This document shows positions 15,752 through 52,764 of a DNA stretch of 64,000 nt, piece after piece. The translations under genes and the position numbers were made by a program. This DNA is from a virus. Positions within the stretch are counted from its first letter, which is position 1. Each line of letters opens with the position of its first letter. The stretch is taken from the IMG/VR virus record IMGVR_UViG_3300025853_000046, positions 26,823-90,822 of that record; one strand, given 5' to 3'. The notes below the pieces were generated by a model. That model was not told the origin of the DNA. It saw only the letters and a program-made list of their open reading frames with translations, and did no database searches.

Positions 15752-16345
15752 TTACAAACTGTTGGCGAATCTCTTCATAGTCACATTTATTCTATATCCA
15801 AATATTCTTGATTTTTTATCATTAGCGTCAGTTCGACTTCCCAGTATAAGATGTTTAATGTTTTCTTCTAAACTACCCGCACTTCGGAACCAGCCCCTCC
15901 GGTTTGTTTCAATGATGTATCGCACTATCTTATAAAGGTTTTCTATTCTGTCACGACCAAAAGTAGAACCCGTAGGTGCAACTCTCGCATTATCATTAGT
16001 CCGTCTATCATCTTGTTTTGTCCTAATACTTACAGACATTTCATGTGTTTCATTTCTTACAGACCAATCACGAGTAGGATATTCAACAGTTTGAGAGTTT
16101 TGCATTACAGCAATAACATCTAAAGAAGGTGTAACTCCGTCTGCTGTAACTTCTGAAGCCGCACTAATTCTTACTTTATTACCACCTCTTCCCGGCTTTG
16201 CTGTATTACGAGTAGAACTCATATCTCGTATATCCATAATCTGAGGTTTAACTCTATGAATTGCAGGAATAGCAGAACCTAAAGCAGTAACAGCGGTATT
16301 CCAATATTCGTCAAGTAGTGTAACTAAATATGTAACTTCATCCAC
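15752..16345 (-). CDS. Putative tail terminator/completion protein (197 aa)
   Basis: Size and position directly upstream of the tail tube. Confidence 0.45.
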   Translation of the reverse strand: MDEVTYLVTLLDEYWNTAVTALGSAIPAIHRVKPQIMDIRDMSSTRNTAKPGRGGNKVRISAASEVTADGVTPSLDVIAVMQNSQTVEYPTRDWSVRNETHEMSVSIRTKQDDRRTNDNARVAPTGSTFGRDRIENLYKIVRYIIETNRRGWFRSAGSLEENIKHLILGSRTDANDKKSRIFGYRINVTMKRFANSL

Positions 16346-17180
16346 GATTTCTCCTCTCCCTTAATTCTCTTTCTGTAATCTCTTCCTCATAGTCTTCGGT
16401 TGTTCCATATCCGCCCATTACCTCATCATCTACACCCATTCCGTAGTCCATACTTTCCGCATACCATTTGTCATAAATAATTTCTTGAACTAATGACATA
16501 TCTTTTAATGAAGTTTCTGCCTGTAGTTCGGCAGTTCTTTGTAATATAATTTGTTTCAATAATATAATTTCTTTATCACCTGTATCTCTTATATCTATCC
16601 CCATTTCATAAGCAATATCAGGCCAAGTTAAATTACCAATTCCCTCCATATTTTTTAATTCAACACTATCCATATTATAAATTAATTGGTCTAAAGTATC
16701 AATAAACTTTTCAGAAATAGACATTCTGTTCTGCGTGTTTTTTCTATCCATTTCTAATTCAAATAAATAATTATTAATTAGTTCAAGCATTTCTTCTAAC
16801 TGTTCTGATAAAATTTCTATATCACTAACATTTACTCTTCTTTTTTCCTTTTCAATTTTATGTTGAGTTAATAAATTAAGTATTTTATCGGGTTCTAATT
16901 GTAGGATTAATGGAGATAATTCAACTAATAAACCATTTGCGCTATCATATGTCAAGGCAATTTCTTCCACATATCTTTGAGTAACTTTAATATATTTTAA
17001 AACTTTAGGATAACCATTAACAATATTATTAATATTATTTGTAACAATATTTTTTAAATATTTTTCAATTTCCACTACTTTATATTCAGGTATCTTAGGA
17101 GGTATAAAATCATCAGACAATGGGTTATTTTCAGGTTCTATGTCCTGTATTTCTATCTTTAAAATTGACTCCCAAATCAT
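16338..17180 (-). CDS. Acidic hypothetical protein with WxxILK N-terminal tag (MIWESILK)
   Basis: ORF track; N-terminal motif. Confidence 0.6.
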   Translation of the reverse strand: MIWESILKIEIQDIEPENNPLSDDFIPPKIPEYKVVEIEKYLKNIVTNNINNIVNGYPKVLKYIKVTQRYVEEIALTYDSANGLLVELSPLILQLEPDKILNLLTQHKIEKEKRRVNVSDIEILSEQLEEMLELINNYLFELEMDRKNTQNRMSISEKFIDTLDQLIYNMDSVELKNMEGIGNLTWPDIAYEMGIDIRDTGDKEIILLKQIILQRTAELQAETSLKDMSLVQEIIYDKWYAESMDYGMGVDDEVMGGYGTTEDYEEEITERELRERRNRG

Positions 17181-17383
17181 TCAAAAGCCTCCTCAATTCT
17201 TCTTTGAATAACTTGAACAACTTCCTGTTCGATAATCTGTTCCATTATTTCATCGCTCATTTTTTCACCCAAAGTTCTTTCGGTGTAGTCCTGTATATCC
17301 TCATTTTGCTGAACAACAGTTTCTAATATAGTCTCCATATCGAGTTGAACCATTCGCATTTTTTCTAAAATTTTACGAAACAT
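17177..17383 (-). CDS. Small acidic helical protein (68 aa)
   Basis: Overlaps both neighbours in the operon. Confidence 0.55.
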   Translation of the reverse strand: MFRKILEKMRMVQLDMETILETVVQQNEDIQDYTERTLGEKMSDEIMEQIIEQEVVQVIQRRIEEAFE

Positions 17384-18374
17384 CTCTACGACCCCGTTTT
17401 CCTCTCACTGGTTTTAATTTACCAGACTTATCTTTTAATTTTTTTTGTGCTTCAAGAAGTTTTCTTTTCTTCTCTTCTGCTTCTCTCATTTTAGACCCAA
17501 GTTCAGCCGCTTCTCTTAAATTTAAATCTCTGGATTCTTGTTCTTTAATCGGTATTTCTCTTGGAACTAATTTAGCCTTTTCTCTATCCCATTGAGATTC
17601 GGGATTAGCGGCTTCTAATTGACGAATATTTTCTTCTTCTGTAAGTTCTTCCTCACCCTTCTCTCTTAAATCCCGTTCTTCGTAGTCTTGTTCTACTAAT
17701 TCAATTACCATATCTGTAATTCTATTTCTTAATTCAGACTCACTATCAAATACTTCATTATCTGATAATTGAATGTCTCCCTCTACTGTTGTAAAAATAT
17801 AGTCTCCCTCTTGTTCTCGAAAAAATACATGGACATATTTTCTACTTAAATCCTTTGCTCTAAATGAAATATTTAATGCAATTTTACCATCACGGTCTTC
17901 ACCATCTACAAGTCTAACATTTGTTCTTCTACCATATTTATCTAAAGGAACTTCTCCTCTAAGATTTCTTCGTAGGCGAGATTTAAAATTTTCCCAATCA
18001 CGAAGTTTTAAATACTCACCGGAACTTGTTTTTAACTTTTCAAGGTCTTCTTGTTGGTTTAATTTAACCATTTTGGCTGGTATCGGCGGCAATGATTTCT
18101 TCTCTTTCTTTCTACGCTTTTTCGCCACTCGTTCATATCCTTCAGGAAAACTTCTACCAATAAATCTATTCATTTTTTCCTTAATAAGAGACATAGGCAA
18201 AATATGCTTACCTGTTTGTGTATGTAGTTTTTTATATTCATTAATTATACTATTTATTACATCTTCAATTATATATTCATCTTGATAACCTGTTTTTTCT
18301 ACATGTTCAAGAAGTAGTTTTTTAAAAATACTTCCTATAACTTTACTTTTGACTTTGAGAATATCCGACCACAT
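17373..18374 (-). CDS. Hypothetical protein with WxxILK tag (MWSDILK)
   Basis: Start moved to ATG at 18374; highly charged. Confidence 0.6.
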   Translation of the reverse strand: MWSDILKVKSKVIGSIFKKLLLEHVEKTGYQDEYIIEDVINSIINEYKKLHTQTGKHILPMSLIKEKMNRFIGRSFPEGYERVAKKRRKKEKKSLPPIPAKMVKLNQQEDLEKLKTSSGEYLKLRDWENFKSRLRRNLRGEVPLDKYGRRTNVRLVDGEDRDGKIALNISFRAKDLSRKYVHVFFREQEGDYIFTTVEGDIQLSDNEVFDSESELRNRITDMVIELVEQDYEERDLREKGEEELTEEENIRQLEAANPESQWDREKAKLVPREIPIKEQESRDLNLREAAELGSKMREAEEKKRKLLEAQKKLKDKSGKLKPVRGKRGRRDVS

Positions 18375-18376
18375 AA

Positions 18377-19183
18377 TTACCAATCCCTACAAGCCATACA
18401 ACGGGCTGAATAATCCCCACCTTTACATGTAGAACATTTATGTCTTGCTCTAAAAGATTTTTTACGCTTAGTATTTCCTCGCTTACCTGTTACTGAAACA
18501 CCTCTTTGCCCCCAATGAACACGCTTATATCCACCTTTACCATTAGGAACGCAAGCCATCCATTTTTTACCCTTTCGAGTAGAACTTGTCTTTTTTGTTC
18601 TTTTAGTGCATTGTGATGAAGCCTTAGAAACTTCTTTTCCATCACAGCCACAGCCGCAACCTGAATCCATATTTTCAATATCAGGTTTAGATTTAGGCGG
18701 CTTATCTTTATCTTTGTATGGAATTTCTAATATCTGTTTTATCTTGTCGGAAAGAGTGGGGTTATTTTCGTATTCATTTTCTCCTGTTACATAATCTATG
18801 TCCTCTTCCATTTCCGAAGTTATTTTCTTAGGCTTTACTTTACCGTAATCCTTTGCTTTTATAATTTGATATGTAGTTATTCTGGAAACTCTACCAAGAT
18901 TTTCAAGTTTTCCATCTCTAATTAATTTACCAAATGCAGTTTTAATTTGACCTGTAAATTTATGATTAAGAAATTGACTAAAACCTGCTAATCTTCCGTC
19001 TTCGATTTCCGACCAATTGTTTCTCATGTATTGAATAATTTGTTTTTTATCTCTTTCAATATCTTCAATAGTCACTCTTTCCGATGGACTATTTTCTATA
19101 TAATTTCTAATACCCTCATATACTTTTTGTCTGTATATAGGGTAATTTACTCTACTACTTCCCTTTAATATTTCTTCCCACAT
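18377..19183 (-). CDS. Multi-module protein with WxxILK tag (MWEEILK) and a C-terminal basic Cys/His domain
   Basis: C-terminus 'KKWMAC...VHWGQRG...RKKSFRARHKC' resembles a small domain common in phages; internal IIK|A and VSK|A sites. Confidence 0.6.
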   Translation of the reverse strand: MWEEILKGSSRVNYPIYRQKVYEGIRNYIENSPSERVTIEDIERDKKQIIQYMRNNWSEIEDGRLAGFSQFLNHKFTGQIKTAFGKLIRDGKLENLGRVSRITTYQIIKAKDYGKVKPKKITSEMEEDIDYVTGENEYENNPTLSDKIKQILEIPYKDKDKPPKSKPDIENMDSGCGCGCDGKEVSKASSQCTKRTKKTSSTRKGKKWMACVPNGKGGYKRVHWGQRGVSVTGKRGNTKRKKSFRARHKCSTCKGGDYSARCMACRDW

Positions 19184-19184
19184 A

Positions 19185-25532: not shown

Positions 25533-26717
25533 TTAAGCACCTCTGTTGTATTTGTCCATTAATTCGTGAACTTCATTCCATGACATTTCTGAAATGTTAT
25601 CGAAGTCCTCACTAAGTTGATTGGACACAGATTGAGTTTCTGCGGCCTTAGCGATAGTGTTGTTCTCAAGAGATTTCTTCAATTGAGAAAATTCTTCCTT
25701 AAGTGAAAGAACTGCGTCTGCGGCATTAAACTTGCTCTTAGCAATTTCATCTGCTTCGAGTGCAAGGTCTTTATTATATCGGGCTTCAAATTCAGCCTTA
25801 ATAACTTCGTATGCACGAGCCTCTTCTTTTTCAGCCTTGAATTGTTCATAGGCTTTTTCGATGTTTGACTTTGAAAGGTCAAGAGAATCAATAGATTCGG
25901 CCTTTGCTTCAACAAATTCCGAAAACTCGGCTTTCATTTCTCGACCCATCTTTTCTTCATCTTTCATTTCTTCAACATCATCATCATCATCAGATTCTGC
26001 TTTCATTTCTTCGCTGTCATAGTCTCCCATTTCAACGGACTCCTCTTCCATTTCATCCATCATCTCAAGTTCTTCCTCTTGTTCGAGGGTGTCCATTGTA
26101 TTCTTGAGAACCGTGGATTCACGGAGTTCAGCCATTACTTCATTAAACTCATTAAGAGCCTTTTCTATTTCTGTATTCATTTTATTATCCTCCTTTATTA
26201 GGTTAAATTTTGCTTCAGGGTTTATGCCCTCTTCGCATATGGTGATTTCATGTAATTCAAGTTTATCAATTTCTTTATAACTTCCGGTATCGGAGTCATA
26301 TTTATTTGTCTTGTTTATCGCCTGTCCACCTATTGAAAAAGAACGAAGATTACCCTTTCTTACATCACGAGCAACCTCCTTAGCCTTTTCAATATCATTT
26401 CTTAATTTTATCACCACAAAAAACCCTGTATCATCAACGCCTGTTTTTAGGACTTTACCATTGGAATCTGTATATTGGTCTACGACCTCTCCGACTTGAA
26501 CATTAGAATGTGTAATCATAACATTTCTATATCGGTCTTGTTTCATAAACTTATCAGCCGCTTCACGAATTGCGCCTAAAGTAATTTTATCATTTTGTTT
26601 ATCTACTACATCAACTGATGCGTAGCCAGCAATAACACATTCATTATTTTCTTTAAGAATAACGAATTCTCCACCGCTATTTGGCTCATCACCAAACATA
26701 GGAGTACTTAACTGCAT
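25533..26717 (-). CDS. Prohead protease fused to an acidic scaffold domain (394 aa)
   Basis: 'IAGYAS...VDKQND', 'H..VQVG', 'LRSFSIGG' and 'LHEITIC...INPEA' HK97-type protease motifs; C-terminal acidic coiled coil. Confidence 0.92.
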   Translation of the reverse strand: MQLSTPMFGDEPNSGGEFVILKENNECVIAGYASVDVVDKQNDKITLGAIREAADKFMKQDRYRNVMITHSNVQVGEVVDQYTDSNGKVLKTGVDDTGFFVVIKLRNDIEKAKEVARDVRKGNLRSFSIGGQAINKTNKYDSDTGSYKEIDKLELHEITICEEGINPEAKFNLIKEDNKMNTEIEKALNEFNEVMAELRESTVLKNTMDTLEQEEELEMMDEMEEESVEMGDYDSEEMKAESDDDDDVEEMKDEEKMGREMKAEFSEFVEAKAESIDSLDLSKSNIEKAYEQFKAEKEEARAYEVIKAEFEARYNKDLALEADEIAKSKFNAADAVLSLKEEFSQLKKSLENNTIAKAAETQSVSNQLSEDFDNISEMSWNEVHELMDKYNRGA

Positions 26718-28850: not shown

Positions 28851-29269
28851 ATCTCGTCACTTGGAGTTAAAGCCGCCTCTTCATTTACCGTTAAGGTATG
28901 TCGAAGACGCTTAAGTTTTCCGAGTGCTGTTTCTAAAGCGGCCTCTACATCTTTATCTTGAGAATCTTCGGCAGGTGCTACTGATTCTACACGAACTTCT
29001 TCTTGGTCGGGTTCTGCTTTGTATGTCATATTTTCAGGCATTAATTTACTTTGGTAATTTCTCTTAACCGTCGTCTGTTCCTTTGTAATTGGTTTAGCCG
29101 CCAACCGTTCAACATTAACTTGCTTTCCAGCATTCTCATTCTTTTGTGCATCGGCAGGTTCATACCCCAGTGCATTAGTAAGCAAAACTGTAAGTTCAGT
29201 TAATTGCGTTAAAACATCTACTCCCTGCATATCGGCTTCATCGGCTACCATTGTTTCTTTTTTACTCAT
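28847..29269 (-). CDS. Hypothetical protein (140 aa)
   Basis: Translationally coupled ORF in the head module. Confidence 0.55.
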   Translation of the reverse strand: MSKKETMVADEADMQGVDVLTQLTELTVLLTNALGYEPADAQKNENAGKQVNVERLAAKPITKEQTTVKRNYQSKLMPENMTYKAEPDQEEVRVESVAPAEDSQDKDVEAALETALGKLKRLRHTLTVNEEAALTPSDEM

Positions 29270-29502
29270 ATTGTTCCCTCCAAATTTTTGACAAGTGAAT
29301 CCAAATCACTCCAATCCATCTTTGAAATCACATCACCATTTGGCATACCCGCTTGGGCTTTTATGCTTGGTCTTGGACTTCTTACAAATCCGGACTTCAT
29401 AATTGCTGTGTCTGAATCTGCTAATTTTCTTTCTAAATCCTTAACCTTGTCGGATAGGGCTTTCAATATTTCTAAAATTTCCACTGTTGTTTCTTCTTCC
29501 AT
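29266..29502 (-). CDS. Small coiled-coil protein (starts MEEETT)
   Basis: GAGGAGG SD before ATG at 29502; internal ILK|A and IMK|S sites. Confidence 0.55.
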   Translation of the reverse strand: MEEETTVEILEILKALSDKVKDLERKLADSDTAIMKSGFVRSPRPSIKAQAGMPNGDVISKMDWSDLDSLVKNLEGTI

Positions 29503-37838: not shown

Positions 37839-39237
37839 ATATTCCACCTCCGAAACTTTGACCTTTGGGTGTGCCAAATAAGCCACTACTATCTATGTCT
37901 ACGAAGGCATCATTAAAAGACTTTGTGGCGTGATTAGCCAAAGCGAGTGCTATAACAATATCATCGTGTGCGCCTAAACCTTCAATTTTTCCTGTGCTAC
38001 TAATACCGAATGCTTCGAGTTCTTGTATAATTGCATCAGAAACACCCTTTGCCTTTTCATCTGCATAGGGTAGTATAATTTTATTATTCTCCAAGTTCAT
38101 CTGTAAGTTAAGAATAATTTCTTCCTTCTTCTTACGGTGCATGGTGAACTCTTTTACAGGAAAATCTGATATATCCCTCAATTCCATAGCAAAGGACTTA
38201 GCGAATGTATTAGTCTCAATCATTACAACTTCGGGTTTGAATCTTTCGCAAAGGTCTGTAATGCGGGTAATGTGAGAACGGAAATCCATATTCTTTTCAC
38301 GCACCATTGTAACAACTTTTTTATTCATATCCTCATCTACTTCAATAACCATCATTACTGTGTAGTCGCCGTCTGCTGAAAGAGAAGGGTCGTAACCGAT
38401 GTAGTATTTGAAAGCCTCATTGTTACCATGATACAATAACTTACTTGTCCGGTCTTTAGACTTATCTATAAACTCTTTTCCAAATAACATCGTATTGGAT
38501 GAAATTGGTATGCAAAGATATTCTCTTGTGAACTTTGAAGAACCTATTTCACGCTTTCTTTTTTCTAAAGAATCAATATCCCAACGAGAGGGCCAAAGAG
38601 CATCACCCGTTTGATTTATCGCTGGATAGCGTTGCACATCATATTCAGGGTTTTCCTCTAATGCGGCAAATATATCAGTGTATGTGAAAGGTGTTCCGAC
38701 CATTCGTAAAGTAGCGGTGTGGTGAAGAGTAGGAATCATGTCTCCCCAAAACCAATCTGTAACTCGCTGTATGGCGGCTACAGAAAACTCCTTCATAGGG
38801 TCGTCAATAATAATTTCTTGAGGGTGAAGTCCACGAATCTGTGAACCAACGGAACGCTCAAGTATTTCATTTCCGTTTGTTAATCTCATTGAGCCGACAG
38901 CCCAACCTGCTTTAGGTTTGTATTTTCTTAGGGCAGGAATGTTTGTGAACATTCGGTCAATGTCTTTCATGTGAACCATTGTCTGTTTTTGGTTTGATGA
39001 AATGTAAATCATTTGATATGGTGGAGGTTGAAAAATTAATTGGTAGATACACCAAGAGTGAAAGAATACAGACTTTCCGTGGTCTCGTGAACAAATGATT
39101 ACAGTTCTTTGAGTGTCGTGAACTGATTGTAGCCAATCACGGTGAAAGTCTGCCATTTCCATTCCGAGAATTTTTGTAAAGAAATATTCAAAATTACCAT
39201 CGGAGGCTTTCATATCCATTTCTGTAAGTAAGTCCAT
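37822..39237 (-). CDS. terL: Terminase large subunit (471 aa)
   Basis: Walker A 'SRDHGKS', Walker B 'IIIDDP', 'VGTP', nuclease 'IGYDPS' and 'HDDIVIALALA'. Confidence 0.95.
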   Translation of the reverse strand: MDLLTEMDMKASDGNFEYFFTKILGMEMADFHRDWLQSVHDTQRTVIICSRDHGKSVFFHSWCIYQLIFQPPPYQMIYISSNQKQTMVHMKDIDRMFTNIPALRKYKPKAGWAVGSMRLTNGNEILERSVGSQIRGLHPQEIIIDDPMKEFSVAAIQRVTDWFWGDMIPTLHHTATLRMVGTPFTYTDIFAALEENPEYDVQRYPAINQTGDALWPSRWDIDSLEKRKREIGSSKFTREYLCIPISSNTMLFGKEFIDKSKDRTSKLLYHGNNEAFKYYIGYDPSLSADGDYTVMMVIEVDEDMNKKVVTMVREKNMDFRSHITRITDLCERFKPEVVMIETNTFAKSFAMELRDISDFPVKEFTMHRKKKEEIILNLQMNLENNKIILPYADEKAKGVSDAIIQELEAFGISSTGKIEGLGAHDDIVIALALANHATKSFNDAFVDIDSSGLFGTPKGQSFGGGIYGINM

Positions 39238-39512
39238 TAACCAATCACCCTTTCATAAACTGTAACTTGGCGTCTACTAAACTGTTTTATTCTTTTTGTA
39301 TATTCTTTATTTTTTGACAAATAATAACTAAGTTCTCCTATTGTGGGGATTGTATCACGCCCAGAAACCTTTCTCCTCTCAACATCATCCCATATTAAAT
39401 CTAATATCATTCTGACACTTCTTTCTTCACCGTCTGCCATAATTTCATCAGTTATTTTTTTAGCCCTATTAGTTATACGAGTACCCTTTAATATTCCCCA
39501 AGCCTTCTTCAT
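39237..39512 (-). CDS. Small wHTH-like protein with W-ILK tag (MKKAWGILKG)
   Basis: Helix-helix-wing pattern; N-terminal motif. Confidence 0.5.
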   Translation of the reverse strand: MKKAWGILKGTRITNRAKKITDEIMADGEERSVRMILDLIWDDVERRKVSGRDTIPTIGELSYYLSKNKEYTKRIKQFSRRQVTVYERVIG

Positions 39513-43999: not shown

Positions 44000-44425
44000 T
44001 TATTCGTTATCTAATTGATTTTTAAAACAAAACATATCCATGTATATTTCATTATATGTGCCTAATAATGTGCTGTAGGCTTCTGCTATTTCTACTCTAA
44101 AATCACGGGTAGTTGAGACATCGGATTGTTTAATTAGCGTTATTAGGTTCTTACAAACTTCAATTAATTCTTCAAACCTATCAATTCGCAGGTCGGTATC
44201 ATTAATGCACTCGTCTTCTTTTTCAAGAGTTTTTTGCCCTTCACGGTTTGCTACTGCTAATCTTTTGGCTTCACGCTTTTTTCTTTCGGCTAACGACTTA
44301 TCAGCCTTTTTTCTTTCGGCTACTATTTCTTCTATTGGGTTAATATCTGCGATATTTTTTCCATCCAAAGTTCTTTGTAGGCCAAATTTAGTTTGTTTTT
44401 TTCTTAAACCGTCTTGCCAAATCAT
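44000..44425 (-). CDS. Tagged hypothetical protein (MIWQDGLRK)
   Basis: Variant of the N-terminal motif. Confidence 0.55.
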   Translation of the reverse strand: MIWQDGLRKKQTKFGLQRTLDGKNIADINPIEEIVAERKKADKSLAERKKREAKRLAVANREGQKTLEKEDECINDTDLRIDRFEELIEVCKNLITLIKQSDVSTTRDFRVEIAEAYSTLLGTYNEIYMDMFCFKNQLDNE

Positions 44426-44667
44426 GCTGTAAATGGCCCCCTTCTTTTGCTTTCTGGTTTATGTGTATAGATGTCGCCATCGGTGTGAATGTAAATTTTC
44501 TTTTTTCTAACTAAATCGTTAACAATTCTTTTTAGAGTTTTACGGTCGGCAATACTTTTTAGATTCTTCATACCCAAAGCACCGCCTTCTTTTTTAATTT
44601 CTGCAAGAATTTTTTCTTCAATCTCACGGTCTGATTCTTTAGCCTTTAGTATATCTTCCCAACTCAT
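44422..44667 (-). CDS. Tagged wHTH-like protein (MSWEDILKA)
   Basis: True start ATG 44667; 'IEEKILAEIKKEGGALGMKNL...LVRKKKIY' wHTH pattern. Confidence 0.6.
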   Translation of the reverse strand: MSWEDILKAKESDREIEEKILAEIKKEGGALGMKNLKSIADRKTLKRIVNDLVRKKKIYIHTDGDIYTHKPESKRRGPFTA

Positions 44668-44671: not shown

Positions 44672-45025
44672 TCACTCTCTTTGTTTTCTATTATAATATG
44701 ATTGTTCTTCATCAATGGTAAGTGGTCTACCTTCTTCTCTAATAATATCTTGCATAGTCGGTTCACCCTTTCCTTGACTTGCATACATCTCAAAGTAATT
44801 ATCAACTATTGTTCTTGCGGGAATCTGTCTTTTAGGTTTAGGGGTAGGTTTTGGTTTAGGGGTGGGTGTGGGCTTAGGTGGTTCGGGCATATATCGGGAA
44901 GTGGGTTTTTCTCCTCTGAATTTATTCCTCGCAAATTTTGCCCTATCGTGAATTAATTTTCCAGCGTCATATGCGCTAAAACTTTTTTTTCGAGATTTCT
45001 TTTTTAGAATATCTTCCCAACTCAT
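44672..45025 (-). CDS. Tagged basic Pro-rich protein (MSWEDILKK)
   Basis: N-terminal motif; PKPTP linker. Confidence 0.6.
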   Translation of the reverse strand: MSWEDILKKKSRKKSFSAYDAGKLIHDRAKFARNKFRGEKPTSRYMPEPPKPTPTPKPKPTPKPKRQIPARTIVDNYFEMYASQGKGEPTMQDIIREEGRPLTIDEEQSYYNRKQRE

Positions 45026-45861
45026 TTTCCTTTCCTCCGTTTGTAAGTTTTACAAGCCGCACAAGTAGGGCGGCATCTTCTCTTTCTACCCTTTGAAGCA
45101 TCTTTTCTACCACAAGGTTTAGGGCCGTTTTTCTTTCCACATGAAGAACAGTCAATCCATCCTCCCTGTGTTTTCTTCCCTTTACCTTCCTTTCCACCTC
45201 TTCGAGAAAACCACCCATGTAAGCCTTCGGACTTCTCTCTCTTAAAGTTATCGCCACTTTGTAAAATATTTTCCCAAGATTTAGAAATATCTAAATACGC
45301 ATCGGCAAGCATAAGTCCTACTTTTTTACCTGCTTCTATATCACTCGGATAATGATTACCCATTTGAACACGGGAGAAAGAAATTTTTTCAGCCAAAGAG
45401 TTAAGTTCTTTTTTCTTATCGGGATATTTTTCACCGAGAACTTTAGCCAGCGCATGTGCTTCAATAGCATGGCCGCTTGGGAAAGAAGGTGTATCGTCTG
45501 TTGTTGTTATAGATTTAATTTCATCCGAAATTTCATATGGTCGCTTTCTACCATATTTCATTTTAAGCCTTATAGTATGAATGTCTACATCTTCAATAAA
45601 ATCTTCCCAATCCGAAATTTTCTCACCAACAACATCAACTAACATTTTATGATTATTCTTATCTAAATTTTCAATAGTTTTTTTATCTAAGTCTTGGTCT
45701 TTTATAATTTTTAAAACCTTTGGAAGTTCCTCTTCGTTATCAGGAAATGACAATTCAGGAATGTCCACTTCAAAGGAAGGTTTGGAATCAAGTAATTTTT
45801 GCTTACTCGCAGAAAGACTGTTCATCCATTTGGATTCTTCCTTGAGTATGTATTGCCACAT
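45022..45861 (-). CDS. Tagged PAP2-family phosphatase/haloperoxidase-like protein fused to a Cys-rich basic domain (MWQYILK)
   Basis: 'KMKYGRKRP', 'PSFPSGHA' and 'SRVQMGNHYPSD' PAP2 motifs; second tag-like 'SK|SWENILQ' before 'GLHGWF...WIDC...PCGR...CRP'. Confidence 0.8.
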   Translation of the reverse strand: MWQYILKEESKWMNSLSASKQKLLDSKPSFEVDIPELSFPDNEEELPKVLKIIKDQDLDKKTIENLDKNNHKMLVDVVGEKISDWEDFIEDVDIHTIRLKMKYGRKRPYEISDEIKSITTTDDTPSFPSGHAIEAHALAKVLGEKYPDKKKELNSLAEKISFSRVQMGNHYPSDIEAGKKVGLMLADAYLDISKSWENILQSGDNFKREKSEGLHGWFSRRGGKEGKGKKTQGGWIDCSSCGKKNGPKPCGRKDASKGRKRRCRPTCAACKTYKRRKGK

Positions 45862-45865
45862 TATA

Positions 45866-46030
45866 TCACTTCTTTTTTGAATTGCCCCAATTAGCCGCAC
45901 CCTTTTTACGACATTGAACTAAAGCACCAGAAGCATAGGCGGAAGGCCATTTTTTATAACGACTTCTTACCTTGCGATAACAAGCGTCTTTTTTTGTCTT
46001 AGATTTTTTACGCAATACATCGAACCACAT
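45866..46030 (-). CDS. Tagged small basic protein (MWFDVLRK)
   Basis: 'KDACYRKVRSRYKKWPSAYASGALVQCRKKGAANWG' resembles a small domain common in marine phages. Confidence 0.65.
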   Translation of the reverse strand: MWFDVLRKKSKTKKDACYRKVRSRYKKWPSAYASGALVQCRKKGAANWGNSKKK

Positions 46031-46031
46031 A

Positions 46032-46235
46032 TTATGCGCCTCTAATATTATATTTTCTAATAACATTTCTTAACGCTATTCTTTTTTTAGAGTCATTACT
46101 GACATGTGAAATGAGGGGGTTATTATATTCTTTTTTATATTCTTTAACTTGTTCAGGATTAAAGTGGTAGGTCTTACCATCAACGGAAAATTTTTTACCG
46201 ATAATTTTAATCTTTAAAATCTGAAACCATTCCAA
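46032..46235 (-). CDS. Tagged small protein (MEWFQILK, TTG start)
   Basis: N-terminal motif. Confidence 0.55.
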   Translation of the reverse strand: MEWFQILKIKIIGKKFSVDGKTYHFNPEQVKEYKKEYNNPLISHVSNDSKKRIALRNVIRKYNIRGA

Positions 46236-46236
46236 T

Positions 46237-46431
46237 TTAATCCCTCTCTTCTGTCTTCATGGGGCAATTAGGTTTAATTGGTAGAGGGGGTAAGTTCATA
46301 GGACACATGTTAAATTTTACGACACTTTTTTTACATCTTGGACAAACGCCCGTTTTTTTAACACCCTTTTCGATACCTAATTTTTGATAGGCGAAGAGGT
46401 CTTTTTCTTTAATTAAGTCTGTCCATGTCAT
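46237..46431 (-). CDS. Tagged small Cys-rich protein (MTWTDLIK)
   Basis: CPRC...C...C. Confidence 0.55.
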   Translation of the reverse strand: MTWTDLIKEKDLFAYQKLGIEKGVKKTGVCPRCKKSVVKFNMCPMNLPPLPIKPNCPMKTEERD

Positions 46432-46634
46432 TCTTTCTCACTCCATAAGTTTGCCCATAGTTTATGTCTCTCGTAATTTTCTTCCAAGTAGTCAATAACC
46501 TCGTCTTTTGACGGGGCGTTATAACCAAGACTATCTGTAAGGTGTTTATAAATGTTTTCAAATAAACTGTCTTTGGTTATATAAGAATCGAGCATTTCAC
46601 GCCAATCGAGTTTAAGAATATTTTGCCACTTCAT
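46428..46634 (-). CDS. Tagged small wHTH-like protein (MKWQNILK)
   Basis: N-terminal motif. Confidence 0.55.
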   Translation of the reverse strand: MKWQNILKLDWREMLDSYITKDSLFENIYKHLTDSLGYNAPSKDEVIDYLEENYERHKLWANLWSEKE

Positions 46635-47251
46635 TGTCTCACCCTCTCTCTTCTTACAAAGGAAGCCGCTATTCTATCTATAAGGGGTCTAAGAACTCTT
46701 ATAAGTATTTCTTGAACATAATTAAATTTCTCATCAGTCATGCCAATAATATTTTTAATTTGTGTCACTCTAAAAATAATATCTTCTATCATAAGATTTA
46801 CAAAGTCAATTCTAAACTGTCTATCGCTAAAATCTCTATCTATATATGCTTGCATTTCTAATGTAAGTATCAATTCAAAATGTTTCTTAAGAGTTCTTTC
46901 CATTTCAGGTTGTAGTTCTCTCCATATAGTCATAAATTCTTCATTAGATAATATATTAATATCTATGTCGTTTATTTGACTCATAAATTCTATAAGATTT
47001 GTCATAGTTTCTATTCCCAACTTTTGTAATTCGGGTTCTGTATTATATTGGGCTTGGTGAGTTGTTTCATGTGCTAATGACCTTGCTAATTGTTCAGGTG
47101 TAAGTTCGGGGTTTCCTGAAATAGTCATTGAATCATCTCTAAAACCATAAGTTGCGTTATGTGCTTCATCAGGTTGTATTTTAATATTAGGTGCAGGTCT
47201 ATCACGGTCTACTGGCTTGAAAGAAATTTTTAGAATTTCAAACCAATTCAT
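46631..47251 (-). CDS. Tagged zincin-like metallopeptidase (MNWFEILK)
   Basis: HExxH 'LAHETTH' with downstream 'EMQAY'. Confidence 0.6.
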   Translation of the reverse strand: MNWFEILKISFKPVDRDRPAPNIKIQPDEAHNATYGFRDDSMTISGNPELTPEQLARSLAHETTHQAQYNTEPELQKLGIETMTNLIEFMSQINDIDINILSNEEFMTIWRELQPEMERTLKKHFELILTLEMQAYIDRDFSDRQFRIDFVNLMIEDIIFRVTQIKNIIGMTDEKFNYVQEILIRVLRPLIDRIAASFVRRERVRQ

Positions 47252-47256
47252 AAAAA

Positions 47257-47424
47257 TCATTCCCCTTTGGTTCTTTTTTTCCATTTAATTTCAGGAAATA
47301 GTTTTTTAAAGTCCTTTTCAAATTGTCTAGCATCTCGTAGAAATTGTTTTTGTTCCTCAGTTAAATCGGAAAACTTCAATTTCTTTTTTTTCTCTATCTT
47401 TTTTATTTTATTCTTCCAACTCAT
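47257..47424 (-). CDS. Unlisted tagged basic protein (MSWKNKIK..., 55 aa)
   Basis: Translated by hand; GGAG SD; fills the gap between neighbours. Confidence 0.6.
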   Translation of the reverse strand: MSWKNKIKKIEKKKKLKFSDLTEEQKQFLRDARQFEKDFKKLFPEIKWKKRTKGE

Positions 47425-47436
47425 ACTAATGTCTCC

Positions 47437-47787
47437 TTATTTTTGATTCTCGTTTAAATATTGTAAAGCCTTTTTAGCAGGTTCAATCGTATAATATTCC
47501 CATTGTTTAGGGTTATAGTATCCCAATTTATTAGCGTATTTGTTTAAAGTTGCTCTTATTTCATTAATGGTAGTTAATTCGTCTAAAAGATTCACGGCGT
47601 TTCGCAACCCTTGTGGAGTTGTTATTCCAATACCTTGAGGCACTTTATCCAATTCATTATTTGCTTCTGTAGAGTATAACATTTTGATATTATAGATAGT
47701 TTCTTTTTCTTGTGTTGGTTGTTCAGATTTTTTATTTCTCCTAAACCTACCAAAGGGTGCTTTTCTTAATTGTTCTTCCCAACTCAT
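47437..47787 (-). CDS. Tagged hypothetical protein (MSWEEQLRKA)
   Basis: N-terminal motif. Confidence 0.6.
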   Translation of the reverse strand: MSWEEQLRKAPFGRFRRNKKSEQPTQEKETIYNIKMLYSTEANNELDKVPQGIGITTPQGLRNAVNLLDELTTINEIRATLNKYANKLGYYNPKQWEYYTIEPAKKALQYLNENQK

Positions 47788-47807
47788 GCTAATCTCTCCT
47801 GCATTTT

Positions 47808-48200
47808 CTAAATATTTGCTTCTTCCACAACTGCTCTTGCGTTAAACTCATAAAGCATTTGAAATGTATATCCTTCAACAACTTCTTCTATATTTAGTTT
47901 CATAGCCTTAGCCATTAAACCTATCATAATAGAATATAAAAGACTCTCATCAACAGAACCACCAAAACCATCTCCGAAATTTATAGCAAGCGATATTTCT
48001 TCTTGTTCTTCTTCTGTTAAGTTATCAAAGTAATTCAAAACCTTTTGCTTTGCTTCTCTAACCTTTCTTCTCCTAACATCATCAAACTTAATATATGGCG
48101 CATAGTTTTTCTCATCAAAAACCATATTTGAATAAGTAAAATCTTCTTCAATAAATTTACTAAAATCTGGAAGGGATTTTAATATTTTTTTCCAACTCAT
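47808..48200 (-). CDS. Tagged hypothetical protein (MSWKKILKS)
   Basis: N-terminal motif. Confidence 0.6.
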   Translation of the reverse strand: MSWKKILKSLPDFSKFIEEDFTYSNMVFDEKNYAPYIKFDDVRRRKVREAKQKVLNYFDNLTEEEQEEISLAINFGDGFGGSVDESLLYSIMIGLMAKAMKLNIEEVVEGYTFQMLYEFNARAVVEEANI

Positions 48201-48859: not shown

Positions 48860-49403
48860 TTTCTATGACCTCATTTAAATCTTTAATAAACTGCGCTATC
48901 GTAGTGTTTGAAAACTTATCATCACCCTTTTTATCAAAATAAATCTGTGTGGCTTTAGTCGCATACACTGAATTCGGAGTTCTTACATTAAATGAAATTA
49001 AATCAGTTGGCTGAGGTTCTTGTAAGGCGAATCCTGCTAAAGACACTAATTCTTCATATTCTATGTTTTCTCTTCTACTAATAGTATTATTTAATACCTT
49101 TAAATTTAAGGCTTCCATTCTTGTTTGCTGTGCGGGGGTTAATCTATTTTCTTCAGTGACACCTACATGTTGAGTTCCACCCGATAATAGTCCACCTGTA
49201 GCGTGAACTCTTAAGTTATCTCCATCCCAAATATCTAACATTTCTGTTAATAATTCGGAAATTTCTTCATTACCGATAGAGTTGATAATTTCTTCAACTA
49301 CAATGTAAGCGGCCTGATAACTTTCGTCTTGTAAATCTTCGTATGCCTTAATTACATTCCACCACGAACCGCTTTCGTTTTCAGGCCCTACACTATTATT
49401 CAC
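48852..49403 (-). CDS. Hypothetical protein with near-N-terminal WWNVIK|A motif
   Basis: ORF track. Confidence 0.55.
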   Translation of the reverse strand: MNNSVGPENESGSWWNVIKAYEDLQDESYQAAYIVVEEIINSIGNEEISELLTEMLDIWDGDNLRVHATGGLLSGGTQHVGVTEENRLTPAQQTRMEALNLKVLNNTISRRENIEYEELVSLAGFALQEPQPTDLISFNVRTPNSVYATKATQIYFDKKGDDKFSNTTIAQFIKDLNEVIENA

Positions 49404-50518
49404 TTTATCACCTTCATTAAATTACTAAATACTGTCATAGCATCGAGTTGCTTGAGCGTAATACCGTCAGTTTGAGTGCTGTTCGGAACTTTGTATGTAT
49501 TCATTTCTTCACCCATAACTTCACGGACAATTTTATTTAGAGTCTTATTATTTGCTGGAAACTTAAGAGACACATTGTTAATTGTTTCGTAATTCACCAC
49601 TTCGTCAATTTCAATTTTTTCACCATCAATTTGAACAGTGCAATTTTCAACAAGTATCTTTAAATCGGACTGATTAATAGTGAATGTCTTTCTACTAATT
49701 GCTTGGTTAAGTCTGTCCTTTACTGCAATTTTAGTTCCTCTTGCGTAGATACTTCCATCGGCCATAACTTCTCGTATTGCTTTGTTAAGTCCTGTAATTG
49801 TAGCCATTTGAACTGCGCCAGTCTTCGCACCTAAATTAGCATTTACTGATAAATTAACAACAGGAGGTGCTTTTTGTTTATCAATTAATTCTATGACCCC
49901 TGCTATTAATACCCTTAGACTATTTTCAGGGCCAAAAATTGCTTGCCATAGTGGGGGCTTTGCTTTACCCAGTGGAACTGTATTTTCAGTTTCACCTTGA
50001 ACAGACCAATTTTTACCTTTAGGATTCACACTTGAAAATTCCTGCCCCGTTTGTTTAGCATTCCATGTGCGGTAATCCCAATAGGCGGGAGTTAAAAAAT
50101 GACCTCTCGAAAAACCCCTTTTAATTTTAGGTTTTTCATCACCCTTTGGTGCTTTAAAATCTACCATTGTTCTAAAAACTATATTCTGCGGATTTCTTTT
50201 TGGGTTCTTTTCTAATGCCCCCAAGTCATCTATTAGTTTTTTTATATCTAATATGTGTTCTTCTAACATTATAGGTTCATCTATAATTTCAATTAAATCG
50301 AGGAGAATATCACCTGCACCAATAAATCCCTTGACCCCTCGACCTATTGTTTGTTTTCCGTGATTCATAACTGTTTGATATACTGACTTAGCATTAGCCT
50401 TTCCGGTATTGGCATCAGGTTTTCCAGTAATGCCATATTCAGAATTTTTACTTGGCCCCCAAAATTTTTTATAATTTGCTATAAGTTGTAAGGCGGCAGG
50501 TTTATCCCATTCAAACAT
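49400..50518 (-). CDS. Hypothetical protein (starts MFEWDK)
   Basis: ORF track; start adjusted. Confidence 0.55.
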   Translation of the reverse strand: MFEWDKPAALQLIANYKKFWGPSKNSEYGITGKPDANTGKANAKSVYQTVMNHGKQTIGRGVKGFIGAGDILLDLIEIIDEPIMLEEHILDIKKLIDDLGALEKNPKRNPQNIVFRTMVDFKAPKGDEKPKIKRGFSRGHFLTPAYWDYRTWNAKQTGQEFSSVNPKGKNWSVQGETENTVPLGKAKPPLWQAIFGPENSLRVLIAGVIELIDKQKAPPVVNLSVNANLGAKTGAVQMATITGLNKAIREVMADGSIYARGTKIAVKDRLNQAISRKTFTINQSDLKILVENCTVQIDGEKIEIDEVVNYETINNVSLKFPANNKTLNKIVREVMGEEMNTYKVPNSTQTDGITLKQLDAMTVFSNLMKVIK

Positions 50519-52040
50519 CTTCTTCTTCCTCCTCATCTTCACTGAATGTAGGGCGGTGTAGTGTCTCAAAACCTTCGCTTTGCGAAGTCGTTGCTTCTTT
50601 TGCCAGTTGTAGTATTTCCATTACTGATAAGGGAACGCCTATTTTTTTACCTTCTTCGATAAAACTCTTTAGAGCAATTTCCCAACTTTCCATGTTGTCG
50701 GTAGAAGACTTTTTTAGATATTCTGTCCACTTCATGTTATTATCAAGAATGGCAATACTACTTAAGTTCTTCTGACTTTTATAAAATTCATATGTATCGG
50801 GATTGCCTACATTTTTTACCGTGTGGGTATTATCTGGTTGTAAAATTATTTCTAAATAGCCCCCAAGATACCCATATACATTTTTATGTTCAGTTTCTTC
50901 AAACCCTAAAATCATTGGAAAATTATATCTTTCATAATAATAGGGGTAATCTACCAAAAAATTAAATAGGGTTTTTATATAACTATAACCTATTGATGAG
51001 TCGTCAAATCCACTTTCTTCTCTTACAATTTTCGCTATCCCTGTAAAAGTTAATTCCCTGCCGTCTTTATACAGAACTGAGTTACGGAATGATTTTCCCT
51101 GTGACATACCAAACTTAGCATCATCAAGAGGTGTTAAATTTGCACTAGCAAAAAAAGGTGGTTCATCTATTTTAAATGCTATTATTCTCCGCATAGTCGT
51201 AAAGTCATTCATATTAACCCAATCATCAGGTTTTACCCAATCAGAATTATAAAAATGTTCTTCGGATGATTCTTTATAAAATAATTTATTTGTTGAACTA
51301 TAATCAACATCCCAATTGCTAAGTCTACCTATCCTAAATTTATCTGTATTTATAGGGTCTACATAAAATTCAGTTTCTGCTCTAAACTGGGGTTCAAATG
51401 ACATATCCTCTATAACAAAACCTGCCTGACAAGTAGGACATTTACCTTCATCGTTTTTTATATCTATTCTAAACTTTGTGTCCTCAAACGGACATTCAAT
51501 ATATGTGTCCTGATTCAGGTAATCACTTATTCCTTCAATGTTTTTCTGAGTACTCCTATCATCAAGTAGTGTAAGAATTAGCCCTCCTAAATTATCTCCC
51601 GCTGGTAACTCTTCGGATAATACAATGCAAATCTTAACACCTTCTTCAGTACTGACTTCGTAGCACCCCTCGTTCATTTCCCTTGTTTTTATACTATAAT
51701 TCTTACCTGAAGACCCTTTAACAGAAACATTGTCTTCTACCCATTCTACTCCACTGTTAGAATCTACTATGCCTGATACAAATTCCATAGAGCGTGTAAA
51801 GGCATTAACCCATTCTTTGAGTTTATCTTGTCTTTGCCCGCTTTCCAATGTATCTCTCAACGGGGGTATTCGAGATGTAATTTGTCTACCTGTTTTTTCT
51901 TCTGTCATCACAGAAAGTTTATTTCCAAGAAATCCATAAATACTTCCAGTAAATCCCCGTTCATTCACAAGACTATAAAAATTACCTTCCTCTCTATTCA
52001 TCGGTGGGGGGTTCGATTTTAATATGTGTTCCCAAGACAT
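50511..52040 (-). CDS. Tagged protein (MSWEHILKS) with internal tag copies
   Basis: Internal 'MKWTEYLKKS' and 'MESWEIALKS'; CxxxC/CPTC. Confidence 0.6.
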   Translation of the reverse strand: MSWEHILKSNPPPMNREEGNFYSLVNERGFTGSIYGFLGNKLSVMTEEKTGRQITSRIPPLRDTLESGQRQDKLKEWVNAFTRSMEFVSGIVDSNSGVEWVEDNVSVKGSSGKNYSIKTREMNEGCYEVSTEEGVKICIVLSEELPAGDNLGGLILTLLDDRSTQKNIEGISDYLNQDTYIECPFEDTKFRIDIKNDEGKCPTCQAGFVIEDMSFEPQFRAETEFYVDPINTDKFRIGRLSNWDVDYSSTNKLFYKESSEEHFYNSDWVKPDDWVNMNDFTTMRRIIAFKIDEPPFFASANLTPLDDAKFGMSQGKSFRNSVLYKDGRELTFTGIAKIVREESGFDDSSIGYSYIKTLFNFLVDYPYYYERYNFPMILGFEETEHKNVYGYLGGYLEIILQPDNTHTVKNVGNPDTYEFYKSQKNLSSIAILDNNMKWTEYLKKSSTDNMESWEIALKSFIEEGKKIGVPLSVMEILQLAKEATTSQSEGFETLHRPTFSEDEEEEEDV

Positions 52041-52065
52041 TACTCTCTCCTCCTTCTCAATCATA

Positions 52066-52764
52066 TTACCAACGCCTTAATAATTTTTTAGGTATGTATT
52101 CCCCTAAATGTCCATTTAAATCATCTATTAAATCACCATATCTCATTTTTATGGGGGGCCATTCTGTTTCGTCAATCTGTTCTACATGTCTCCATATTTG
52201 TTCTAAAAGTGTGTCCTTGTAATCCTGTTCATTTGAATCATAAATAGTTATAAAATCATTTATTGAGTGCATTTTAGTTTCCGGCATGTGTCTTTCTACA
52301 TATGCGGGAAGAGTAAGAATTGCAGGTAATTGGTTATTTTTACTTGCGAGAAGAAGTGTAACCATAAAATCCCCATTTGTCATCACATTATTAGCCTTTA
52401 CGCAAAAACGCATTCCAGTTGAGTCCATTGTTGGGAATGTATCTCCCGCCTTTTCACCAATACCTCCTTTATTATTCCATACTTGACGCATAAACGGCAT
52501 TTTTAATGTAAAAGGCACTCCCTCTATATCGAATTTAAAAACAAAATTTAAACCATCTCTTTTAATTTCATCAAAGGGTTTCATAAATTCTAAAGTTTTT
52601 TTATAAACAAGGGAAAACTGTGGAGGCTTGTCAAACATAGATGAAAGAACTTGGTCTTCTTCCTCTTTAGTTATTTCCCGTATTGGTGTAAATTCTCGGA
52701 AGGAAATTAGTATCTCTTGAGCCGTATCTCGACTTCTATCCTTTAATATATCTTGCCAACCCAT
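52066..52764 (-). CDS. Tagged protein (MGWQDILK), first gene of the late operon
   Basis: GGGGTG SD; N-terminal motif. Confidence 0.6.
   Translation of the reverse strand: MGWQDILKDRSRDTAQEILISFREFTPIREITKEEEDQVLSSMFDKPPQFSLVYKKTLEFMKPFDEIKRDGLNFVFKFDIEGVPFTLKMPFMRQVWNNKGGIGEKAGDTFPTMDSTGMRFCVKANNVMTNGDFMVTLLLASKNNQLPAILTLPAYVERHMPETKMHSINDFITIYDSNEQDYKDTLLEQIWRHVEQIDETEWPPIKMRYGDLIDDLNGHLGEYIPKKLLRRW

What the first reader, a model, noticed from the sequence alone, without database searches (positions are those of the whole stretch)
16338..52764. Shared N-terminal W-x-x-I-L-K tag on about 20 unrelated late proteins: candidate capsid-targeting and cleavage signal
Seen: these ORFs start with near-identical peptides although their bodies differ. 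MIWESILK (17180), MWSDILK (18374), MWEEILK (19183), MWEDILK (31840), MKKAWGILK (39512), MIWQDGLRK (44425), MSWEDILK (44667, 45025), MWQYILK (45861), MWFDVLRK (46030), MEWFQILK (46235), MTWTDLIK (46431), MKWQNILK (46634), MNWFEILK (47251), MSWKNKIK (47424), MSWEEQLRK (47787), MSWKKILK (48200), ..SWWNVIK (49403), MSWEHILK (52040), MGWQDILK (52764). No plus-strand early ORF carries it. The cargo bodies include a phosphatase, a HExxH peptidase, wHTH domains, Zn fingers and basic peptides. Established: phage T4 internal proteins share a short N-terminal capsid-targeting sequence that the prohead protease removes. Inference: this is an archaeal-virus addressing system that loads many proteins into the head for co-ejection into the host.
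Basis: partly seen in the sequence, partly recalled or inferred. Interest (0 to 1): 0.93.

Follow-up and report, generated by a model that had tools for sequence, protein, structure and literature searches.

The report
Shared address tag on magrovirus proteins
About a third of the genes on the capsid-building arm of this 91-kb ocean archaeal virus begin with the same eight-residue peptide, most likely a label that loads a fast-changing set of small proteins into the virus head, although neither loading nor clipping has been measured.

Summary
Twenty minus-strand genes in the window, and two more just outside it, start with M-x-W-x-x-[IV]-[LI]-K. None of 63 genes on the replication strand does. 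Synonymous codons vary freely, so selection acts on the peptide. In 281 related virus contigs the tag heads 834 distinct proteins in 393 unrelated body clusters, always on the capsid-gene strand. It also sits at the extreme C-terminus 23 times, against about 2 expected, and sometimes at module junctions. Tagged genes turn over much faster than their untagged neighbours.

Three links tie the tag to head assembly:
- The capsid-protein leader ends in an invariant hydrophobic-hydrophobic-Lys before Ala/Ser/Gly.
- The same triplet flanks the S78 protease domain.
- The scaffold tail and a 78-aa mini-scaffold end in M-[SD]-W-x-[DE]-hydrophobic.

My best reading (about 55%) is a docking tag that loads cargo into the procapsid and is probably clipped after Lys. 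This works like the phage T4 capsid-targeting sequence and like encapsulin cargo peptides, but with a different sequence.

Packaging, partner and cleavage are untested. This scan has already reported the same tag in at least 34 other magrovirus genomes. I found no paper that describes it.

The parts
16338..17180 (-). tagged gene, 280 aa, acidic, starts M-I-W-E-S-I-L-K
17373..18374 (-). tagged gene, 333 aa, starts M-W-S-D-I-L-K
18377..19183 (-). tagged gene, 268 aa, C-terminal DUF5754 with two CxxC
29507..31840 (-). tagged gene, 777 aa, between portal and protease. Orthologues carry either the short tag or a ~30-aa leader ending [YW]-x-x-I-L-K before Ala
   Evidence: AF2 model poor, no fold match
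39237..39512 (-). tagged gene, 91 aa, variant M-K-K-A-W-G-I-L-K, just upstream of terminase
44000..44425 (-). tagged gene, 141 aa, relaxed tag W-Q-D-G-L-R-K
44422..44667 (-). tagged gene, 81 aa, canonical M-S-W-E-D-I-L-K
44672..45025 (-). tagged gene, 117 aa, canonical tag, basic
45022..45861 (-). tagged gene, 279 aa, PAP2 phosphatase domain. No strongly hydrophobic segment. Second tag-like S-W-E-N-I-L at residue 195
45866..46030 (-). tagged gene, 54 aa, pI 10.6
46032..46235 (-). tagged gene, 67 aa, TTG start
46237..46431 (-). tagged gene, 64 aa, CxxC
46428..46634 (-). tagged gene, 68 aa, acidic
46631..47251 (-). tagged gene, 206 aa, bare HExxH motif at residue 61
47257..47424 (-). tagged gene, 55 aa, relaxed tag W-K-N-K-I-K
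47437..47787 (-). tagged gene, 116 aa, relaxed tag W-E-E-Q-L-R-K
47808..48200 (-). tagged gene, 130 aa
48852..49403 (-). tagged gene, 183 aa. The tag lies 13 residues behind the GTG start, whereas relatives start M-S-W-W-N-I-I-K
50511..52040 (-). tagged gene, 509 aa. A second, internal tag at residue 436 heads a module that is a separate small tagged gene in relatives
52066..52764 (-). tagged gene, 232 aa
24296..25531 (-). major capsid protein (HK97/SU10-like). A 26-residue leader ends N-I-L-K before Ala, and K26 is invariant in 33 relatives
25533..26717 (-). S78 prohead protease fused to an acidic linker and a coiled-coil scaffold. I-L-K at residues 20-22 lies in a disordered leader. L-I-K175 ends the protease fold. 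The C-terminal helix starts at W380 (M-S-W-N-E-V-H)
29266..29502 (-). 78-aa mini-scaffold-like protein ending M-D-W-S-D-L-D-S-L-V, conserved in relatives
34801..36462 (-). portal protein (context; match below Pfam cut-off)
37822..39237 (-). terminase large subunit (context; anchor for the related loci)

Best explanation
M-x-W-x-x-[IV]-[LI]-K is a portable terminal address tag of group-B-type magroviruses.

Proposed mechanism:
- The tag most likely forms a one-and-a-half-turn amphipathic helix with Trp, Ile and Leu on one face.
- This helix docks the protein onto a component of the assembling procapsid, so that the protein is enclosed in the head.
- The partner would be the inner face or leader of the capsid protein, as for the scaffold tail, or else the protease-scaffold itself.
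- The hydrophobic-hydrophobic-Lys end matches the probable cut site of the S78 prohead protease. N-terminal tags are therefore probably clipped off, and junction tags probably separate modules.
- The cargo is a fast-turnover set of small, soluble, often basic proteins that would enter the next host with the DNA.

Shown here: the tag, its protein-level selection, its strand restriction, its portability, the fast turnover of its bearers, its positions, the conserved Lys site in the capsid-protein leader, and the scaffold-tail resemblance.

Inferred: the binding partner, packaging, cleavage and ejection.
For: - Protein-level tag on 22 late-strand genes against 0 of 63 early genes.
- In loci anchored on terminase, 205 tagged ORFs lie on the terminase strand and 3 on the other.
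- The tag persists in relatives down to about 43-46% capsid-protein identity.
- 834 distinct tagged proteins fall into 393 body clusters.
- Conservation stops abruptly after Lys.
- The tag also occurs at the extreme C-terminus 23 times, against about 2.3 expected, always with 1-3 residues after K/R.
- Orthologues of the 777-aa protein swap the 8-residue tag for a ~30-residue leader ending [YW]-x-x-I-L-K before Ala at the homologous position.
- The capsid-protein leader ends in hydrophobic-hydrophobic-K before A/S/G in 56 of 57 distinct relatives. K26 is invariant. The same holds in a second magrovirus lineage.
- The protease-scaffold has 6 such triplets against 1.9 expected.
- I-L-K22 lies in a disordered leader and is at least 90% conserved across proteases of 24-68% identity.
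- The scaffold tail and the mini-scaffold tail share M-[SD]-W-x-[DE]-hydrophobic with the tag. They rank 3rd and 4th of 27,010 internal positions with a 6-residue tag profile.
- The Trp tail is widespread on protease-scaffold fusions.
- Tagged genes turn over fast: 9/14, 4/14 and 2/14 are retained against 11/11, 10/11 and 8/11 untagged.
- No tagged protein has a transmembrane-like segment, and 12 of the 18 listed (automatic gene set, window plus the two outside) have pI above 9.
- Precedents: the 80alpha scaffold and SaPI1 CpmB share a C-terminal R-I-I-K motif that binds the capsid protein at one site (PMC6893505). The T4 capsid-targeting sequence is another (PMC3012670, PMC9026906).
Against: - There are no virion or proteome data for any magrovirus.
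- No binding prediction could be run.
- The residue after Lys is unconstrained in tags (A, R, I, K, E, S...), unlike the capsid-protein site. C-terminal tags would lose only 1-3 residues. Cleavage may therefore not be general.
- The full 8-residue tag profile does not retrieve the scaffold tail.
- In the second lineage the tag is A-F-[DE]-x-A-W-x(1-2)-L-L-K, yet the scaffold tail stays M-S-W-D-E-V-H. The residues before Trp therefore do not covary, and 'M-S-W' in this lineage may just be the start codon plus a small residue.
- Three tagged genes (16338-19183) sit among neck and tail genes and could be structural parts.
- Twenty-two cargo species is far more than in T4.
Confidence: 0.55

Rival explanations
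1. The tag is above all a substrate handle for the prohead protease. The protease domain of the protease-scaffold fusion holds W-x-x-I-L-K in its substrate groove. It carries the bound proteins into the procapsid as latent enzyme-substrate complexes and cuts after Lys once activated. The receptor is the protease, not the capsid protein.
For: - The hydrophobic-hydrophobic-Lys end is shared with the capsid-protein leader and the protease borders.
- C-terminal tags always keep 1-3 residues after K/R, as a scissile bond would need. None of 23 ends at K/R.
- Tags occur at module junctions.
- The triplet is enriched in the scaffold.
Against: - Trp is absent from the capsid-protein and protease sites, so it must add something beyond cleavage.
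- The residue after Lys is unconstrained in tags.
- No structural test was possible.
Confidence: 0.15
2. The tag docks its bearers onto some other common hub that is not part of the head. Candidates are the virus's own GroEL/GroES-type chaperonin, a host factor or a degradation machine. On this view the likeness to the scaffold tail is coincidental.
For: - Terminal peptides that work at either end are typical of short linear docking motifs.
- The genome encodes a chaperonin pair in its early block (PMC5434244).
- The scaffold likeness does not covary between lineages.
- An earlier scan note read a similar C-terminal W-x-x-[VI]-L tail in other archaeal viruses as a clamp-type motif.
Against: - The tag is strictly restricted to the structural-gene strand, and tagged genes are interleaved with head genes.
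- Its end is shared with the capsid-protein leader site.
- Two scaffold-type proteins carry the Trp tail.
- No candidate receptor emerged. The one conserved untagged gene in the tagged cluster looks like a DNA-binding protein.
Confidence: 0.2
3. The shared start is an RNA- or translation-level signal (initiation context, downstream box), or the remnant of one duplicated gene family. It is not a functional peptide.
For: The motif sits at the very start of most bearers, behind a ribosome-binding site.
Against: - All synonymous codons for I, L and K are used, while the amino acids are kept.
- The same peptide occurs at C-termini and inside proteins.
- There are 393 unrelated body clusters.
- Likeness ends exactly at Lys.
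Confidence: 0.03

Closest known systems
Capsid-targeting sequence (CTS) of phage T4 internal proteins IPI-III and Alt, removed by the gp21 prohead protease
   Same: A short N-terminal peptide shared by otherwise unrelated, often basic, fast-evolving proteins encoded with the head genes. It has an aromatic-x-x-hydrophobic-hydrophobic pattern and ends at the motif that the virus's own prohead protease is thought to cut.
   Different: No sequence likeness. The protease family differs (S78/HK97-type here), as does the P1 residue (Lys, not Glu). The host is archaeal. About 22 bearers per genome and hundreds of families, against a handful in T4. The tag is also used at C-termini and junctions. Packaging and cleavage are unproven here.
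Encapsulin cargo-loading peptides
   Same: A short terminal peptide, usable at either end, that would dock unrelated cargo onto the inside of an HK97-fold shell during assembly.
   Different: The consensus differs. The shell here is a genome-carrying viral capsid with scaffold and protease. Binding to the shell is not shown.
C-terminal capsid-binding tails of scaffolding proteins (80alpha SP and SaPI1 CpmB with the shared R-I-I-K motif; P22 and herpesvirus scaffolds; HK97 protease tail)
   Same: The protease-scaffold and a mini-scaffold here end in a conserved Trp helix. A second protein copying the scaffold's tail to use the same capsid site is documented for CpmB (PMC6893505). The tag shares M-[SD]-W-x-[DE]-hydrophobic and a hydrophobic-hydrophobic-Lys element.
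   Different: The tag is mostly N-terminal and shorter, and it sits on hundreds of non-scaffold proteins. The likeness is partial and does not covary between magrovirus lineages.
HK97 gp4-type (S78) prohead protease processing of the capsid-protein N-terminal scaffolding domain
   Same: A Pfam S78 domain and a leader removed from an HK97-fold capsid protein. From my own knowledge, unchecked here, HK97 cuts after Lys103. The paper read here confirms only a 103-residue scaffolding domain (PMC10275583).
   Different: The leader here is only 26 residues. The scaffold is fused to the protease instead of to the capsid protein.

Membership tests
T4-type capsid-targeting sequence system | Short N-terminal peptide shared by otherwise unrelated proteins encoded with head genes | tested here: met
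T4-type capsid-targeting sequence system | Peptide ends at the cleavage motif of the virus's own prohead protease | tested here: inconclusive
   The tag ends like the inferred capsid-protein leader site, whose K26 is invariant. The site itself is only inferred, and the residue after Lys is unconstrained in tags.
T4-type capsid-targeting sequence system | Peptide is necessary and sufficient for incorporation into the head; bearers are found in virions | not testable with these tools
T4-type capsid-targeting sequence system | Sequence relationship to the T4 peptide and a gp21-type protease | tested here: not met
   The protease is Pfam S78. The tag has no likeness to the T4 peptide beyond a hydrophobic pattern.
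Encapsulin cargo-loading peptide | Terminal peptide usable at the N- or C-terminus of cargo | tested here: met
   716 N-terminal and 23 C-terminal occurrences
Encapsulin cargo-loading peptide | Binds a pocket on the inner face of the HK97-fold shell protein | not testable with these tools
Scaffold-tail mimic (as CpmB versus the 80alpha scaffold) | Shares the scaffold's C-terminal capsid-binding motif | tested here: inconclusive
   The 6-residue likeness ranks 3rd of 27,010 positions. The 8-residue profile fails, and there is no covariation in the second lineage.
S78 (HK97-type) prohead protease | Pfam PF04586 match above the curated cut-off, next to the capsid-protein gene | tested here: met
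   45.4 bits against a cut-off of 21. The fold is modelled with pLDDT above 90 over residues 30-170.
Magrovirus group B (Aoguangviridae-like) | ~90-100 kb genome; capsid protein nearest to haloarchaeal siphoviruses; own replication block with chaperonin and ribonucleotide reductase; tRNA-Leu | tested here: met
   compared with PMC5434244. The polymerase and chaperonin were read from ORF sequences only, not profiled.

The most novel reading that the evidence does not exclude
Magroviruses run a sequence-readable cargo system. Any protein carrying W-x-x-[IV]-L-K at either end or at a junction is loaded into the head by copying the scaffold's capsid-binding tail, and is then released by the Lys-specific head protease. 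On this reading up to a third of the structural-arm genes encode proteins injected into Poseidoniales cells. The injected proteome of an uncultured, globally abundant archaeal virus group could then be read from sequence alone. The tag could also be reused to load foreign proteins into HK97-fold shells.
Probability: 0.4. Interest if true: 0.85.

Novelty: new variant of a known kind. Interest (0 to 1): 0.72.

Why it matters
Magroviruses are among the most abundant archaeal viruses of the surface ocean and none is cultured. Most of their genes have no known function: only about 3 of 150 representative tagged proteins match any Pfam family.

If the tag marks capsid cargo, several hundred orphan families become candidate injected host-takeover or anti-defence proteins. 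The few with Pfam matches include a CCA-adding/poly(A)-type nucleotidyltransferase, a pentapeptide-repeat protein and a PAP2 phosphatase. This would be the first capsid-targeting system described for an archaeal virus, and far larger than the T4 paradigm.

It also offers a simple eight-residue handle for loading proteins into HK97-fold particles. The idea can be tested directly by co-expressing four or five genes.

Tried and rejected
The contexts of distant protease-scaffold relatives could not be fetched that way.
- A scan with P0011 found nothing. P0023 gave only two loci, both in the same broad clade.
- The lineage whose scaffold tail reads I-P-F-S-K-I-R-K (P0061; loci L283-L288) has no shared terminal tag. 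It gave no test of the principle that tags copy the scaffold tail.
- The covariation test between the two tag types and their scaffold tails was negative for the residues before Trp.
- The full 8-residue tag profile does not pick up the scaffold tail.
- Pfam and PHROGs on the window's tagged proteins and on 150 representatives returned almost nothing.
- The AlphaFold model of the 777-aa tagged protein was poor (mean pLDDT 55). Foldseek against the PDB had no hit at E <= 0.001. PDB sequence searches were empty.
- The conserved untagged gene 48197-48859 inside the tagged cluster was considered as a receptor or enzyme. Its look-alike clusters carry HTH domains in only a minority of members, so I read it as a DNA-binding protein.
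- HVTV-1 halovirus head genes show no such tag.
- RNA-level and paralogy explanations were rejected on codon variation, C-terminal copies and unrelated bodies.


Full report
**What the window is.** The window is the right 64 kb of a single 90,822-bp virus contig. Genes on the minus strand from about 57,300 down past the window's left end encode the following:
- terminase large subunit (37822-39237)
- portal (34801-36462)
- an S78 prohead protease (25533-26717)
- an HK97/SU10-type major capsid protein (24296-25531)
- a tail tube protein (14089-15735) and large tail proteins

The plus strand, from 57.5 kb to the end and wrapping to genome positions 1-24,700, holds the replication block. It includes a ribonucleotide reductase fragment and tRNA-Leu. 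The capsid protein's nearest relatives among deposited phage genomes are haloarchaeal siphoviruses at 27-29% identity. Size, gene content and these affinities fit the published description of group B magroviruses of Marine Group II archaea (PMC5434244).

- All 20 listed starts translate as claimed.
- The strict core W..[ILVM][ILVM][KR] occurs 21 times in minus-strand frames, 15 of them directly behind a start codon. It occurs 4 times in plus-strand frames, none coding.
- Every synonymous codon for Ile, Leu and Lys is used in the tag.
- Two further tagged genes lie just outside the window. None of 63 early-strand genes has the strict tag.
- Minor corrections: four tags are relaxed variants, one lies 13 residues in from the start, and the 509-aa protein carries a second, internal copy at residue 436.

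**The tag is a clade-wide portable module.**
- In 80 loci anchored on terminase, 205 tagged ORFs lie on the terminase strand and 3 on the other.
- Loci anchored on the capsid protein show the tag down to 46% capsid-protein identity.
- A degenerate DNA pattern for M-[ST]-W-E-D-I-L-K hit more than 119 IMG/VR contigs. Nearly all are relatives of this virus, with tags on one strand only and up to 21 in 14 kb.
- In all, 834 distinct tagged proteins fall into 393 body clusters with a median length of 111 aa. Likeness ends exactly at the Lys.
- Only about 3 of 150 representatives have a Pfam domain: a CCA/poly(A) nucleotidyltransferase, a pentapeptide-repeat protein and DUF6321.
- Tagged genes are replaced quickly. 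Within 10 kb of terminase, 9/14, 4/14 and 2/14 of the window's tagged genes are found in relatives at about 97, 83 and 70% terminase identity. The untagged figures are 11/11, 10/11 and 8/11.
- The window's tagged proteins have no transmembrane-like segments and many are basic.

**Position is not strictly N-terminal.**
- Among 2,141 distinct late-strand proteins, the core stands at the start 716 times, at the extreme C-terminus 23 times (about 2.3 expected from the internal density) and inside 101 times. This set is enriched for tagged loci by the way some were fetched.
- All 23 C-terminal copies keep 1-3 residues after K/R.
- Orthologues of the window's 777-aa protein carry either the 8-residue tag or a ~30-residue leader ending [YW]-x-x-I-L-K before Ala. 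The bodies align from the next residue on.

**Links to head assembly.**
- *Capsid-protein leader.* The leader ends in hydrophobic-hydrophobic-Lys followed by Ala, Ser or Gly in 56 of 57 distinct relatives. It sits inside an otherwise variable stretch, and K26 is invariant in a 33-sequence alignment. A second magrovirus lineage has L-L-K before Ala at the same place.
- *Protease-scaffold.* The protease is fused to an acidic linker and a coiled-coil scaffold. I-L-K(20-22) lies in a leader modelled as disordered and is at least 90% conserved across proteases of 24-68% identity. L-I-K175 closes the last strand of the protease fold. The protein holds 6 such triplets against 1.9 expected.
- *Scaffold tails.* The scaffold ends in a short helix starting at W380 (M-S-W-N-E-V-H...). 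A conserved 78-aa coiled-coil protein (29266-29502) ends M-D-W-S-D-L-D-S-L-V. With a profile of the first six tag positions, these two tails rank 3rd and 4th of 27,010 internal positions in the proteome. Trp tails of this kind are common on distant protease-scaffold fusions.
- *Precedent.* Scaffold C-termini bind the capsid protein in P22, herpesviruses and 80alpha. In 80alpha, the SaPI1 protein CpmB copies the scaffold's R-I-I-K tail to use the same site (PMC6893505).

**Limits of that argument.**
- The full eight-position profile does not retrieve the scaffold tail.
- In a second lineage (records G001 and G003) the tag reads A-F-[DE]-x-A-W-x(1-2)-L-L-K while the scaffold tail stays M-S-W-D-E-V-H or D-G-W-K-A-L-E. 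Only Trp plus a following hydrophobic residue is common to all. The 'M-S' of this lineage may simply be the start codon plus a small residue.
- The residue after Lys is free in tags, unlike the capsid-protein site.
- Nothing shows binding, packaging or cutting. No magrovirus proteomics exists in the searched literature.

**Reading and odds.**
- Best (about 0.55): a docking tag that loads cargo into the procapsid, probably clipped after Lys.
- A variant in which the protease itself is the receptor: about 0.15.
- Docking to some non-capsid hub: about 0.2.
- RNA-level or paralogy explanations are essentially excluded.

The system works like the T4 capsid-targeting sequence and like encapsulin cargo peptides. 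It is not a member of either by sequence, and it uses a different protease family.

**Prior work.** The magrovirus papers read here do not mention the tag. This scan has already reported the same tag, the scaffold-tail likeness and the Lys-site idea on at least 34 other magrovirus genomes. I re-derived these points independently before reading those notes, but they are not independent evidence.
- the C-terminal copies with their statistics
- the leader-for-tag swap in orthologues
- the turnover figures
- the size of the cargo repertoire
- the disordered state of the protease leader
- the negative covariation test

Noticed in passing
window 53339-57271: The 10-nt palindrome ACCATATGGT occurs 12 times, often as C-C-T-T-ACCATATGGT-A-A-G. 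All copies lie in the gene-poor stretch between the tagged cluster and the divergent early block, and there are none elsewhere in the 90.8-kb genome. It is probably an operator, promoter or origin array.
   Followed up: partly
window 62611-62693 (+): tRNA-Leu (anticodon TAA) lies in the early block. This fits the tRNAs reported for group B magroviruses.
   Followed up: no
window 26760-28850 (-): A 696-aa ATP-dependent DNA ligase sits inside the head module, between the mini-scaffold genes and the protease. This placement is conserved in relatives.
   Followed up: no
window 50511-52040 (-), residues 436-509: The C-terminal 74 residues start with a second tag (M-K-W-T-E-Y-L-K) and hold a further S-W-E-I-A-L-K. 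Relatives encode this module as a separate 48-85-aa tagged gene, so it is an in-frame fusion here.
   Followed up: partly
window 48197-48859 (-): An untagged 220-aa protein with an N-terminal CxxC lies in the middle of the tagged cluster. It is conserved at 42-72% identity in most relatives while its neighbours vary. Look-alike clusters carry HTH domains in a minority of members. It may be a regulator or a small terminase.
   Followed up: partly
window 48852-49403 (-): The tag lies 13 residues behind the only in-frame start codon (GTG), whereas relatives start M-S-W-W-N-I-I-K. Either the start was lost or an unusual start codon is used.
   Followed up: no
loci L174, L208, L213, L242, L243, L252 and others: Proteins of 100-1150 aa in relatives end in K-S-W-x-x-[IV]-L-[KR] plus 1-3 residues. 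One (L122) carries the tag at both ends. The tails resemble the C-terminal W-x-x-[VI]-L tail noted earlier in the scan for putative DPANN viruses.
   Followed up: partly
G001 (L297-L300) and G003 (L301-L302): A second magrovirus lineage uses a longer tag, A-F-[DE]-x-A-W-x(1-2)-L-L-K, at starts, junctions and one C-terminus. Seven tagged genes stand in a row at one end of the G001 contig.
   Followed up: partly
window 58986-59273 (+): One early-strand ORF starts V-W-W-R-R-M-K. This is a borderline tag-like start and the only one on that strand.
   Followed up: no
genome 8937-10699, outside the window (+): A GroES-like 74-aa ORF lies directly upstream of a GroEL-like 513-aa ORF in the replication block. 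Both were read from sequence only. The 2017 magrovirus paper expected no co-chaperonin.
   Followed up: no
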